Positions 1,878-28,708 of a stretch of 28,708 nucleotides of DNA are shown here, piece by piece (position 1 is the stretch's first letter; every line of letters starts with the position of its first letter). The position numbers were made by a program, and so were the translations under genes. Under the pieces are notes generated by a model. That model did no database searches and had not been told where the DNA came from. It was given only the letters and a program-made list of their open reading frames with translations. This DNA comes from Octopus sinensis (lineage: Eukaryota), in NCBI RefSeq assembly GCF_006345805.1, contig NW_021833478.1, forward strand, positions 1-28,708, read 5' to 3'.

Positions 1878-1965
1878 TATATATGTGTATATATATATAT
1901 ATATATATATATATATATATATATGGAAAAATGTAGATGATGCTAAAGTAATTTTATAAAAAAAA

Positions 1966-2007
1966 TTTCAGTACCGGTTTCAGTCATTGATACTTTTTCA
2001 ACTGTAA
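1966..2007 (-). ncRNA. Minimal type I hammerhead ribozyme-like motif (U3-A8 core variant) within a short (TA)n-flanked element at ~1925-2056
   Basis: Minus strand reads UUACAG-UUGAAAA-AGU-AUCAAUG-ACU-GAAA-CCGG-UA-CUGAAA: stem I CAG/CUG, stem II AGU/ACU, palindromic stem III ACCGGU, cleavage triplet GUA. Confidence 0.6.
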
Positions 2008-2269
2008 GTATGGAAAACAATTAAATTTTGAAAAAAAATTAAAAGAAAGTTTTCTTAAAAGAATATTTGTATGGTATTCAAATGCAAGTGGCATTCTCCT
2101 TCTTTCTGCCTGTCTCTGTCTCTCTTGTTTACTGTTATATATATATATATATATAATTTTCTTCTAATTTCTACAACAGCATTTTGCTGAGTCAGCCATA
2201 GATTCGTATGGCAAATATATGTACTGACTATCACCATTTAGCCAAGCCAAGTCAGCTTGTAATTTCAAG

Positions 2270-2380
2270 GGAAACTAGACCAGTATAAAGATCTCGCTCG
2301 CTGAGGGGCAGTTATCTCCCCTGTCAGACTATAAAAAATGTGCTTTCTTGAAGCTCTAAAGGTTTTTAACTCTCATTTCT
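2270..2380 (+). pseudogene. Possible relic of the C-terminal RLE endonuclease region of an R2/R4/NeSL-type LINE
   Basis: Translates KLDQYKDLAR* then L*KMCFLEALKVF, resembling the RLE motifs EK..KY.DL..E and LQK..LLG...IL. Short and interrupted by stops. Confidence 0.3.
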
Positions 2381-3148
2381 AGCAATATAGGTACTACCCT
2401 GCACCCTTAGGCAGAATTAAGTACAACTGAATTTTTCCTTTTCGGTATCATATTGCGCATGGGTGCCTTTGCTATGTCCACACACACACACACATAAATA
2501 TATAGGTATATATATATATATATATATATATATATATATATATATATATATATATATATATATAAAATATATATACATATATGTGTGTTGTGTGTGTGTA
2601 TGATTTTGTGTTTCATAATAGAGAGGAATAGCTTTGGTGCATGTCTCAGAGTTTAATTATTTATATGCATATGTATGCATGTTATATATATATATATATA
2701 TATATATATATGCATGTATATATATATGTTATATATATATATTATTTATATATACATATACTTGTTTTATATATATATATATAAAGACACGTTATACACA
2801 TACGTATGTATAATATATTACGTACAAATATATGTATATATACACACACACGCACACACATATATATATATATATACAAATATTTAAATTATATATACAT
2901 TTACATACATATATGCATATATACAATGTACATTTAGTACGCGTATCTGGAATATGTGGACTGAAGTGTCACTATGTACAGACGTAGGTGAAGGGGATAC
3001 TGCCTGATATGAATAGAGCTTTACCCATCACATACCCCCAACCCACAGCACCCGGACACCCCCACTCTTAGCCCAGGACCAACTCTAGCCCCCATCGCGA
3101 ATTCAGACAATCAAAATCAATACAACAAAAAACACAACGTAATTTAAT

Positions 3149-3267
3149 CACACACACACACACACACACACACACACACACACACACACACACACACGCA
3201 CGCACACACACACACACACATACACACACACACTCTCACACACACACACACGCACGCACACACGCAC
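3149..3267. repeat. (CA)n microsatellite
   Basis: Directly visible. Confidence 0.97.
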
Positions 3268-3837
3268 AAATGACTCAACAAAAGAATTAATATGGCCGCT
3301 GTCAATAAGGGTCGTACTTCATAGAGACGAAGTATTCTTTTGTCTCTGACACCATTTGTTTTTTTTAACGCGACCGCAATACACTAACTGCCTGACTGTA
3401 CTATTGAAAGGTTGAATAACGGGGTTGGAATAAAAGAACAATGTGTTAGGTTCAAGAAAATAATACAGAGAGGAAATACAATTATCAAATTACCACCGAT
3501 ACATTCTCGTCTGTTTTACAAACATTAATTGTCGCTCTTGAGTTATTTTGCTTTTGTCGTAGAGTTTTAATAATGAAATCTGTTGACGTGTAGAACTAAT
3601 TATGTTTGTAAATTTGTTTCTTCCTCCTTATTCCAGGTGGAATCTTAATTAATTAACTACTCTGTGGCGGTGACTATATCAAGGTTGATAGTCAGGACTT
3701 AGCTATGGGTTATACTTGCGTATGTCACCCCTGCGTCATTGTCTCCTGTTTATAATCAACTGTCATTCCTCTGTTGAGATATATTACTGTTAGCACTCGG
3801 AGTGACTCAGCTTTGTATGTGTGGGCATGTGTATAAG

Positions 3838-3955
3838 TATATGCATGTATGTATGCATGCATGCATGCATGAATGTATGTATGTATGTATGTATGTATGT
3901 ATGTATGTATGTATGTATGTATGTATGTATGTATGTATGTATGTATGTATGTATG
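3838..3955. repeat. (TATG)n microsatellite
   Basis: Directly visible. Confidence 0.97.
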
Positions 3956-4045
3956 TCATTATTCAGTTCTATTTCAAAATCTCTTGCCAATAGAGAAAGA
4001 GCTGGTTTCTAACCTAGATCCAAGGCTTCTTCAGTGGAATTCCCA
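3955..4045 (-). mobile_element. Short microsatellite-adjacent element with a degenerate hammerhead-like motif (Penelope-like relic?)
   Basis: Minus strand CUGAAGA-AGCCU-UGGAUCU-AGGUU-A-GAAAC-CAGC-UC. Exact core boxes and stem II are present; stems I and III are imperfect. Confidence 0.4.
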
Positions 4046-4140
4046 CAGTATATATACCTGCAAATTTGTGTTTTGTTTTATGTATGTATTCTTATGCATA
4101 ATGTATATAAGCATGTATGTATGTATGAACGAATGTATGT

Positions 4141-4392
4141 GTGAAGGCGCGAGTCCTAGTGTTTAGGTTATCGCACTCACGATCGCGAGACCGTGGGTTA
4201 GGGTTAGGGTTGTGTTCTTGAGCAAAACCCTTCATTTCACGTGGCACCAGTCCACTCTGCTGTCAATGGGTGCTAAACCTCTGACCAAACACCTTTCCAA
4301 TCGGGGGAAAATGTTTGCCTGCCCGCCTAGCTTGCACAGTGGCGTCATTCTAAGGCTAAAACGATACGAAGCGCATTGTGACCAGCGGTGAT
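4141..4392 (+). mobile_element. tRNA-derived SINE, head D (CORE-like central domain) with its own tail
   Basis: Head GTGAAGGCGCG..TAGTG.TTAGG..CTCACGATCG and domain TTGTGTTCTTGAGCAA..TTTCACG..CCAGTCCACTC, shared with 17242, 27032(-) and 27420. Confidence 0.75.
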
Positions 4393-26530: not shown

Positions 26531-27031
26531 TCTTTAAGAGCCGACGATGCTGTTATTTTAACCCCAGGAAAATATCTCCTCCTGGTTATACAATACGCTT
26601 TCGCATTTGATATTCATTGCGCGTGGGAGAGAACTCCTGCCATCCTGGACCATCAGATCATATGATTTCGGTCTTACTGGATCACTTCAGAGCTGGGCAC
26701 TCGTTTGCCAGGCTTGGCATTAGTCTGACCTCACTTGCAATATGCAGAAAATATACTGTCATACAATTACTGATCTTCTAACTCGCGTAGTAGTCCGTTT
26801 GAAAATCTCTGTTGCCGTTTCCAAATTCGTATCTCTTTGTGCATGTCTATATTTGTATATATACATATTTCTGTCTTACTATTTTTTGATTGTTTGTGTG
26901 TAGGTGTGCGTGTGTGTGTGGTTGTTTGTGTACGTGTGAGTGCGTATGTGATTGCTTCACGAAACACCTATCACCTCTTAATTCCCTCCCCCAAATATAA
27001 AGAGACATTGTGAATAGACAGGCGAATAGAT

Positions 27032-27220
27032 AGCGTGGCACAGACTGTGACAAGGCTGGCTCTTTGAATTACTGTAACAACCCACTTTTGTCAGTTGAGA
27101 GGACTGGAACAACATGATATGAAGTGTCTTGCTCACGGATACAATGTACCTCCGTGAATCGAACTCACGGCCTGGCGATCATGAGCTGAATATCCTGAAC
27201 ACTAAACCACGCACCTTCAC
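27032..27220 (-). mobile_element. SINE head D + start of tail T1, 3'-truncated
   Basis: Reverse complement GTGAAGGTGCGTGGTTTAGTG...GAGTTCGATTC..GTGAGCAAGACACTT..TCAAAGAGCCAGCCTTGTCACA.TCTGTG.CACGCT. Confidence 0.8.
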
Positions 27221-27257
27221 ATACAAGCATCCATACACACACACACCACACATACAC

Positions 27258-27388
27258 AGAACGTGAAACTCTGAAACTCGGAATAACAATTTTTGTGATA
27301 TTTTTGCTGCTTTTCAATAAAGCATATTACTCTACCTCTGGTATTCGAGTACTATTTTCCCACCTTGTTTCACATTTATGTGCATTTA
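27258..27388 (+). mobile_element. Partial copy of the (TA)n-flanked element at 27837-28020
   Basis: Near-identical direct repeat GATATTTTTGCTGCTTTTCAATAAAGCATATTACTCTACCTCTGGTATTCGAGTACTATTTT. Confidence 0.88.
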
Positions 27389-27419
27389 TGTATATATATA
27401 TATATATATATATATATAT

Positions 27420-27688
27420 GCGTGTTGTGTTCTTGAGCAAGGCATTTTATTTCACGTTGCTCCAGTTCACTCAGCTGTAGAAATGAGTTGCGACGTCAAT
27501 GGTGCCAAGCTGTATCGACCTTTGTCTTTCCCTTGGATAACACTGGTGGCGTGGAGAGGGGAGGCTGGTATGCATGGGCGACTGCTGGTCTTCCATAAAA
27601 CAACCTTGCCCGGACTTGTGTCTAGGAAGGTAACTTTCTAGGTGCAATCCCATGGTCATTCATGACCGAAGGGGGTCTTTACCCTTTA
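27420..27688 (+). mobile_element. 5'-truncated SINE, D-type central domain with a third tail
   Basis: TTGTGTTCTTGAGCAAGGCATTTTATTTCACGTTGCTCCAGTTCACTCAGCTGTA, then a tail ending CTTTACCCTTTA unrelated to those at 4141 and 17242. Confidence 0.8.
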
Positions 27689-27836
27689 TATATATATATA
27701 TATATATATATATATACACGCACACACACACACACCACACACACACATATATATATATATATATATATATATATATATATATATATATATATATATATAT
27801 ATATATATATAATGTATGTATGTATATATATATATA

Positions 27837-28020
27837 CTTTATTGAAAAGCAACAAAAATAACCTGAAAGCTGTAACTCAGAGTGTCACGTTCCCGTTCAT
27901 CCGACGAGAACGTAAAACTCTGAGTAACAATTTTTGCGATATTTTTGCTGCTTTTCAATAAAGCATATTACTCTACCTCTGGTATTCGAGTACTATTTTT
28001 TCCACCTTTATGTGCATTTA
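27837..28020. mobile_element. (TA)n-flanked fold-back element with degenerate hammerhead-like motifs at its centre
   Basis: Imperfect palindrome 27837-27963. Minus arm CGGAUGA-ACG-GGAA-CGU-GACAC-UCUGA-GUU; plus arm CCGACGA..CGU-AAAAC-UCUGA-GUA. Confidence 0.75.
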
Positions 28021-28101
28021 TATATATATATATATATATATATATAATATATATATATATTATATATATATGCTATATTGTTATATGTATATATTGTTAT
28101 A

Positions 28102-28708
28102 TTTCGGAATGGCCATTTTGCCAGTTTAGCCAATAAAACACAAGCACTATATATTTGGTGTTACTATGCTTCAGAGTTATTTATTTTTTACATTAATCTT
28201 AATCTTATTTCGGCCAGAGTTCTTTCGTCACACTCCTGTGACCGCATCAGTGGTCCTTTGTTTTCTTCTATCTTATTTGTGTCTCTCTTTACTAACCGTC
28301 AGCCATTTTGTATTTCTAGTGTATGTCTACATTTGCGCATGCTTGTATCTGTATGTGCGTCTATGTTTATTTAGTGTGTGTATGTGGGGAGGATGCCTGT
28401 AATATTTGTATCTTCTGTTTATATACATTCATGTAATTTGTTTTTGTTGTTGTTGTTTTTGTTTATTCTTATTTTTTTCATGTGTTTACATCCACTTATT
28501 ATTATCATTACGTATGCTTGTAAGTATGTATGTATGTATGTATAACAACAATACTAGTAATAATAATAATAATAATAAATAAATAAAAAAAAATCTTTTA
28601 AATTAAACGAAAAAAAACAAACAAAAACAGGAGTGTGACGAAAGAACTCTGGCCGAAATAAGATTAAGATTAATTTAAAAAATAAATAAATCTGAAGCAA
28701 AGTAACAC
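28102..28708. mobile_element. (TA)n-flanked inverted-repeat element running off the window; hammerhead-like motif at 28212-28256 (-)
   Basis: Arms 28158-28239 and 28627-28708 (82 bp, 3 mismatches). Minus strand GGACCA-CUGAUGC-G-GUCAC-AGGAGU-GUGAC-GAAA-GAAC-UC-UGGCC. Confidence 0.82.

What the first reader, a model, noticed from the sequence alone, without database searches (positions are those of the whole stretch)
1925..28708. Five sequence-unrelated microsatellite-flanked elements share one architecture with hammerhead-like motifs
Seen: elements at ~1925-2056, 3955-4045, 4777-5030, 27837-28020 (partial twin at 27258) and 28102-28708 share no obvious primary sequence. All abut (TA)n or (TATG)n. 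Each has a YUGANRA-like box, a small hairpin and a GAAA-like box reading toward the flanking microsatellite. Three are inverted repeats with the motif at the inner end of the arms. Known: Penelope-like retroelements carry hammerheads in pseudo-LTRs that are often inverted. Inferred: a diverse class of non-autonomous, ribozyme-bearing, microsatellite-associated Penelope derivatives (retrozyme-like) that pipelines would label as MITE or unknown. I cannot tell from sequence alone whether these are already described.
Basis: partly seen in the sequence, partly recalled or inferred. Interest (0 to 1): 0.75.

Follow-up and report, generated by a model that had tools for sequence, protein, structure and literature searches.

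The report
Penelope retroelement stubs, one LINE tail
Four of the five repeats are the cut-off ends of ordinary protein-coding Penelope-type jumping genes whose families carry a predicted hammerhead (self-cutting RNA) fold, and the fifth is the tail of an unrelated jumping gene with no such fold, so this is a known pattern, with the side note that many short copies stop at one sharp point that likely marks the capped start of the copied RNA.

Summary
All five elements are real multicopy repeats, but they are not one non-autonomous class. Longer genomic copies of E1 (1925-2133), E3 (4779-5082), E4 (27837-28018, twin 27259) and E5 (28094-28708) run into GIY-YIG-type endonuclease ORFs of Penelope-like elements (RT seen for E1, E3, E5; Nematis-, Neptune-, Hydra-, Neptune-like by motifs). 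Their families carry minimal type I hammerhead folds, with core variants U3:A8 (E1, E3), U4C (E4) and A9C (E5). In the window only E1 and E5 keep a complete fold. E2 (3957-~4115) is the 3' UTR of a restriction-endonuclease-type LINE; 0 of 19 loci pass the hammerhead descriptor. E3 and E5 are homologous, not unrelated. Fold-back junctions differ copy to copy, and the tail sits on one arm only: the published PLE insertion pattern, not MITEs. Side result: short E3 and E4 copies end 30-60 nt upstream of the predicted cut site; in E3 sharply at -44, often with an extra G, likely run-off at a capped transcript start. This scan already noted both the stub pattern (this genome and others) and the cap edge (other genomes). 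Cleavage is untested.

The parts
1925..2133 (-). E1: tail-less 3' UTR/pLTR stub of a Nematis-like PLE family, between two (TA)n runs; no inverted arm
   Evidence: 89% to L250 3' end, 76% to L446 (784-aa RT+GIY-YIG ORF); E1 lies downstream in sense of the endonuclease in 24 of 30 loci picked by the protein
1969..2004 (-). E1 minimal type I hammerhead fold, U3:A8 core, palindromic helix III, predicted cut between 1972 and 1971; helix II reduced to 3 bp in this copy
   Evidence: helix II first pair A-U 26 / G-C 19 across subfamilies
3957..4115 (-). E2: 3' UTR stub of an RLE-type (R4/Dong-like, clade recalled) non-LTR retrotransposon ending in (CATA)n; no hammerhead
   Evidence: 91% to L058, whose upstream ORF ends in PD..E..GTIKICKTFQKFII; CCHC and RT motifs in L059/L451; 0 of 19 loci pass descriptor
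4779..4917 (-). E3 inverted, tail-less arm of a Neptune-like PLE pLTR; hammerhead with G12A (likely dead); 5' end at the family's -44 edge
4912..5082 (+). E3 direct arm with one-sided tail (about 5030-5082); helix II deleted; the end region reads as a probable ORF start (MTLPRHNRICFNTR... in other copies)
   Evidence: parent RT+EN in L163-L189, L431-L434
27259..27389 (+). E4 twin: single tailed stub starting inside the hammerhead (first box missing)
27837..27905 (-). E4 inverted, tail-less arm of a Hydra-like PLE pLTR; damaged hammerhead
27900..28018 (+). E4 direct arm with tail (shortened); helix II 5' strand deleted, G12A
   Evidence: 86% to L442 3' end; Hydra-type endonuclease upstream in L192, L203, L206, L216, L220
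28094..28575 (-). E5 tail-less arm: 3' UTR/pLTR of a young Neptune-like PLE family (95% identity among top hits)
   Evidence: 94% over 432 nt to L435; RT and GIY-YIG ORFs in L082, L084, L093, L096
28214..28253 (-). E5 hammerhead fold with A9C core change, predicted cut between 28217 and 28216
   Evidence: C at position 9 in 15 of 16 distinct instances
28627..28708 (+). E5 opposite arm, begins in loop II, cut by the contig end
   Evidence: 96% over 82 nt; the window is the whole contig C9949

Best explanation
E1, E3, E4 and E5 are short end copies of four protein-coding Penelope-like retrotransposon families in this genome, likely dead on arrival, and E2 is the 3' end of an unrelated LINE. Shown: longer copies continue into RT/GIY-YIG ORFs; the families carry a hammerhead fold in the pseudo-LTR; fold-backs pair a tailed with a tail-less arm; 5' ends of E3 and E4 copies pile up just 5' of helix I, not at the cut site. 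Inferred mechanism: the element's endonuclease cuts AT-rich DNA, each cut strand primes reverse transcription at one of two internal start sites in the pLTR (tail and tail-less ends, as shown in vitro for the anole element), and the two cDNAs join head to head. Inferred with less support: for E3 (and probably E4) many cDNAs are primed in the upstream pLTR of an uncleaved, capped transcript and run off its 5' end, giving the sharp edge and the extra G.
For: Parents. Hammerhead folds. Varied junctions. Adjacent inverted arm in 43 of 69 E4 and 19 of 30 E3 tail-selected copies; it lacks the tail in 43 of 43 and 18 of 19. 5' ends at -30..-60 from the predicted cut: 40 of 69 (E4), 18 of 30 (E3), hazard about 2.6-2.7% per nt against 0.05-0.9% in most other bins; ends at -5..+8 only 5 of 69 and 3 of 30. 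E3 hammerhead-selected copies: 47 of 70 end at -38..-44 (19 at -44), 2 at -45..-51, 21 beyond; no shared sequence upstream of the edge. G instead of the parental C at -45 in 19 of 37 arms ending at -44 (p about 1e-4), 10 of 23 after removing those the inverted arm explains (p 0.02). Literature: two internal RT starts, unprocessed RNA as main substrate (PMC11167929); TSS inside the pLTR (PMC8557442 section 10).
Against: No full-length pLTR-ORF-pLTR tandem was recovered in 20 extended loci, so that the E3/E5 end is the ORF start rests on E3/E5 peptide similarity. The RT catalytic region of the E4 parent was not recovered, and Pfam gave no hit for its endonuclease piece. The E4 edge is broad (-37 to -51) and coincides with where subfamily upstream sequences diverge, so some E4 ends may be mapping limits. 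In E3 the -60..-100 bin also has a high hazard (4 of 4). Several of the 10 'untemplated' G cases could still be templated by variant arms. E1 copies show no edge close to the hammerhead by eye; E5 was not sampled without bias. No RNA end was observed.
Confidence: 0.88

Rival explanations
1. The short elements are a non-autonomous, retrozyme-like class that is copied as a unit by PLE enzymes.
For: Short copies far outnumber long ones (only 7 of 69 E4 and 0 of 30 E3 tail-selected copies reach past -100); one locus (L111) has four head-to-tail ~108-nt E3 units; earlier scan notes report true non-coding families elsewhere in this genome (unchecked). A solo pLTR that keeps its promoter could seed further stubs.
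Against: Each family has a coding parent with the same pLTR; junctions are copy-specific; window E3/E4 ribozymes are broken; the window copies are not tandem arrays.
Confidence: 0.07
2. The stubs are as described, but the sharp 5' edge is a spliced-exon boundary or a structural template-switch point, not a capped transcript start.
For: An AG lies at E3 -44/-43; in D. virilis the intron end maps to the 5' end of helix I (PMC4209133); E3 -44..-38 is complementary to a stretch near the pLTR end and E4's helix I extends to about -43 (read), which could favour fold-back there.
Against: No common exon upstream of the edge; edge also seen in copies without an inverted arm; G excess at -45.
Confidence: 0.35
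3. E3 and E4 are MITEs of a DNA transposon.
For: Short inverted repeats, thousands of copies (2925 and 1122 exact tail-motif matches), TA flanks.
Against: One-sided tails, variable centres, PLE ORFs upstream; no transposase among the ORFs inspected upstream.
Confidence: 0.02

Closest known systems
Insertion units of endonuclease-positive PLEs: pLTR, adjacent inverted 5'-truncated copy, optional tail (Craig 2021 PMC8557442, passages and sections 10-11; Arkhipova 2013 PMC3846280, passages)
   Same: Head-to-head arms, tail on one arm, pLTR containing the first codons of the ORF, AT/(TA)n targets
   Different: Tails here about 35-70 nt (30-40 in print); sharp pile-up of 5' ends at the hammerhead's front edge not found in the passages read
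Minimal hammerheads of metazoan PLEs (Cervera and de la Pena 2014, PMC4209133, parts 1-2 of 4)
   Same: Type I, short palindromic helix III, U3-A8 covariant, mostly solo or on opposite strands 100-700 bp apart, attributed to truncated PLEs
   Different: U4C (E4) and A9C (E5) family-level variants not seen in the text read (figures not visible)
[quoted passage not shown]
   Same: CxCX5C linker, CxxC and CxH near the C-terminus, (TA)n target; hammerhead helix III/I nearly the same as Hydra-2_Amil by eye
   Different: E4's hammerhead differs from Hydra-1_Obim's; E4 motif strings not found in that supplement (line-wrapped sequences could hide a match)
Poseidon element PAc of the green anole (Frangieh 2024, PMC11167929, parts 1-2 of 4)
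   Same: Two internal RT starts bracketing the tail; hammerhead cleavage dispensable in vitro
   Different: Other clade; that paper does not report a run-off edge in the parts read
Animal non-LTR retrozymes (bioRxiv 10.64898/2026.07.22.740005, part 1 of 5; PMC7229834, search listing only)
   Same: Type I hammerhead, PLE origin
   Different: Defined by tandem units each with a full hammerhead and no coding parent body; not the case for these window copies
R4/Dong-type RLE non-LTR retrotransposons (recalled; no paper read)
   Same: E2 parent: RT, CCHC knuckle, PD-(D/E)xK-like end, simple-repeat 3' end
   Different: Clade not tested by tree

Membership tests
EN+ Penelope-like elements (E1, E3, E4, E5) | ORF with RT and C-terminal GIY-YIG endonuclease upstream of the repeat | tested here: met
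   E1: RVT_1 E 2.6e-8 and GIY-YIG E 1.3e-4 on L446; E3, E5: weak RVT_1/GIY-YIG hits below cut-off plus motifs; E4: endonuclease and thumb region by motif only
EN+ Penelope-like elements (E1, E3, E4, E5) | Hammerhead fold in the pLTR | tested here: met
   Relaxed descriptor passes in 17 of 19 (E1), 16 of 29 (E3 long), 13 of 29 (E4 long), 18 of 19 (E5) loci, a few through other families' motifs
EN+ Penelope-like elements (E1, E3, E4, E5) | Inverted 5'-truncated partner and one-sided tail | tested here: met
   E3, E4; examples for E1, E5
EN+ Penelope-like elements (E1, E3, E4, E5) | Direct pLTR-ORF-pLTR tandem | tested here: inconclusive
   None among 20 extended loci
EN+ Penelope-like elements (E1, E3, E4, E5) | RT phylogeny; self-cleavage | not tested
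   No reference set or tree; cleavage needs the bench
Hydra clade (E4) | CxCX5C linker, CxxC and CxH flanking conserved E and N, (TA)n target | tested here: met
   CNCKDESSC, CDLC..EK, N..S..CRH; 59 of 64 flanks
Hydra clade (E4) | RWK and DKT motifs in the N-terminal/RT part | tested here: inconclusive
   That part of the ORF was not recovered
Neptune/Nematis clades (E1, E3, E5) | CX2-5CxxC linker before GIY-YIG | tested here: met
   CGRPNCGIC (E1), CTNDNCMVC (E3), CTDKYCTVC (E5); the split Nematis versus Neptune is from recalled RT motifs, not tested
Non-LTR retrozyme | Tandem units each with a complete hammerhead, no coding body | tested here: not met
   Window copies single or inverted; coding parents found; one local array at L111 only noticed, tandems not counted systematically
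MITE | Fixed symmetric termini and a transposase parent | tested here: not met
   target-site duplications not assessed
RLE-type (R4/Dong-like) LINE (E2) | RT, CCHC knuckle and restriction-like endonuclease upstream of the 3' end | tested here: met
   By recalled motifs in L044, L049, L056-L059, L451; Pfam and PDB gave no significant hit for the 114-aa piece; clade not tested

The most novel reading that the evidence does not exclude
Most short PLE copies here are not random 5' truncations but complete run-off cDNAs of the leader of a capped, uncleaved transcript that starts about 14 nt before the hammerhead core. The genome thus maps the element's promoter and shows that the ribozyme sits at the very front of the RNA and usually has not cut when RT passes; the young E5 family spreading with an A9C core would fit cleavage being dispensable.
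Probability: 0.55. Interest if true: 0.45.

Novelty: new member of a known kind. Interest (0 to 1): 0.2.

Why it matters
The main finding is ordinary: it annotates four PLE families and one LINE and shows that such hairpins should be filed as PLE ends, not MITEs. The side result gives a testable handle on an open question, the role of the PLE hammerhead and the template of PLE reverse transcription, but this scan has already noted it in other genomes.

Tried and rejected
First hammerhead scanner needed 3 bp in helix III and a CUGANGA box and missed all real cases. The repeat finder was swamped by microsatellites. Rfam gave no hammerhead hit. First two end-mapping scripts were discarded: one search lacked subfamily references, one search was misled by microsatellites; one search is the masked version. 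The E1 pair table includes about 20-30 mis-anchored matches among 80. L113's endonuclease and L118's Hydra-like ORF were considered as E3 parents and rejected (other families). Paper search for R4/Dong gave nothing usable. Rows left out: L280 (neighbour of L279); three listed places next to another match were not fetched; L351-L390 were not; L335/L336 look like one duplicated insertion and were both kept; one L382 junction is counted twice; L455 was fetched and not examined. mixes selections and is not used for rates.
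Full report
Setting. The window is a whole 28.7-kb contig of a 2.72-Gb genome, rich in microsatellites and dispersed repeats, with no convincing protein-coding ORF (by eye). Earlier scan notes call the genome an octopus; I did not test that.

Observation. Each element has at least 40 scored matches and over 1000 first-look candidates. Exact motifs count 417 (E3 hammerhead), 928 (E4 hammerhead), 1122 (E4 tail) and 2925 (E3 tail), with 0 for reversed controls. 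Copy alignments give minimal type I hammerhead folds for four families: E1 UUGAAAA / 4-bp helix II / GAA ACCGGU A; E3 UUGAAAA / 5 bp / GAA AAUU U; E4 CCGACGA / 3 bp / GAA ACUCnGAGU A; E5 CUGAUGC / 5-6 bp / GAA AGAACU C. U3:A8 is a published covariant of C3:G8 (PMC4209133). Between E1 subfamilies the first pair of helix II is A-U in 26 and G-C in 19 instances (with mis-anchored rows as noted); within E3 and E4 the helices are conserved but hardly covary, so they say little beyond descent. In the window only E1 (strict descriptor, 3 of 60 shuffles reach it) and E5 (relaxed, post hoc descriptor) are complete; E3 and E4 copies are damaged. E2 has none (0 of 19 loci).

Parents. E5 copies run into an RT (YSRYVDD) and a GIY-YIG domain with a CX4CxxC linker. 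Walking upstream from E3 via L107 reaches a closely related RT and endonuclease. E3 and E5 also share their tails (77% over 62 nt), and both ends translate to similar peptides starting MT(L/I)P, probably the ORF start inside the pLTR, as described for rotifer and anole elements (PMC3846280, PMC11167929). A protein search with E1's endonuclease gave 30 loci, 24 with E1 downstream in sense; a sister subfamily has open 784-aa frames with RVT_1 and GIY-YIG hits. Walking upstream from an E4 subfamily (L133) reaches a Hydra-type endonuclease; the window copy is 86% identical to that family's end and 80% to another subfamily (L147) whose ORF I did not reach. E2 copies run into an ORF end with PD..E and GT(V/I)KI, a CCHC knuckle and RT motifs, a restriction-endonuclease LINE; 'R4/Dong' is my recalled label.

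Architecture. In copies chosen only by the tail, 43 of 69 (E4) and 19 of 30 (E3) have an adjacent inverted arm, almost always without the tail, and the inner ends differ between copies. That is the published PLE pattern (PMC8557442) and fits two internal RT start sites (PMC11167929), one used from each cut strand (inferred). It excludes a fixed MITE or retrozyme master for these families.

5' edge. Ends pile up 30-60 nt upstream of the predicted cut, not at it. For E3 the edge is sharp: of 70 copies chosen by an exact hammerhead motif starting at -38, 47 end by -44, 19 exactly there, 2 in the next 7 nt, 21 beyond. The next base is G in 19 of 37 arms where long copies have C; 10 of 23 once cases explained by the inverted arm are removed. 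That RT can copy a cap G is my own knowledge. I read this as run-off at a capped start (about 55%), against a splice site or structural switch (about 35%). I formed this idea (note) before seeing that earlier scan notes report the same in other genomes; those notes are unchecked and not independent support. Two paper searches found no paper stating it; passages of PMC3846280 propose self-priming on an antisense template instead. Subscription papers, Repbase and bioRxiv supplements were not visible.

Papers seen: PMC8557442 passages, sections 10 and 11, supplement passages; PMC11167929 and PMC4209133 parts 1-2 of 4; bioRxiv 10.64898/2026.07.22.740005 part 1 of 5; PMC3846280 and PMC6962438 passages; others as search listings only.

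Verdict. Real but ordinary: new families of a known kind, one element misassigned, and the proposed non-autonomous class not supported. Interest 0.2.

Noticed in passing
window 28244 (E5 core position 9); L082-L100: The young E5 family has C at core position 9 in 15 of 16 distinct instances sampled (sample biased to the window copy); A9 is normally needed for activity (recalled).
   Followed up: partly
L446:1274-3625 (+), L447 (minus strand): Open 784-aa RT+GIY-YIG frames of an E1 sister subfamily; in L446 an E5-family pLTR pair sits in the TA run right after the E1-type end.
   Followed up: partly
L111 around 1180-1540 (sense): Four head-to-tail units of about 108 nt, each with the E3 hammerhead region: a local retrozyme-like array.
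   Followed up: no
L113 upstream of the E3 arm: E3 arm joined head to head to the endonuclease end of a different PLE family with its own hammerhead-like motif; possible cross-family template switch or nested insertion.
   Followed up: no
L217:2211-2882 (element sense): A second, different Hydra-type endonuclease ORF directly after an E4 copy; L118 holds another Hydra-like RT fragment, so several Hydra families are present.
   Followed up: no
L184, antisense frame of 273 aa: An E3 copy lies beside an exon that looks like a WD40-repeat host gene.
   Followed up: no
window 1465-1874, 9850-10275, 11533-12133, 16796-17771, 22682-25598, 27419-27686 and others: Many further dispersed repeats, several with tRNA-like heads by eye (probable SINEs); two pairs form the window's longest inverted matches.
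   Followed up: no
E3 family, positions -44..-38 and about +72..+78: The 5' edge is complementary to a stretch just before the tail-less end; L350 shows a junction made through this microhomology.
   Followed up: partly
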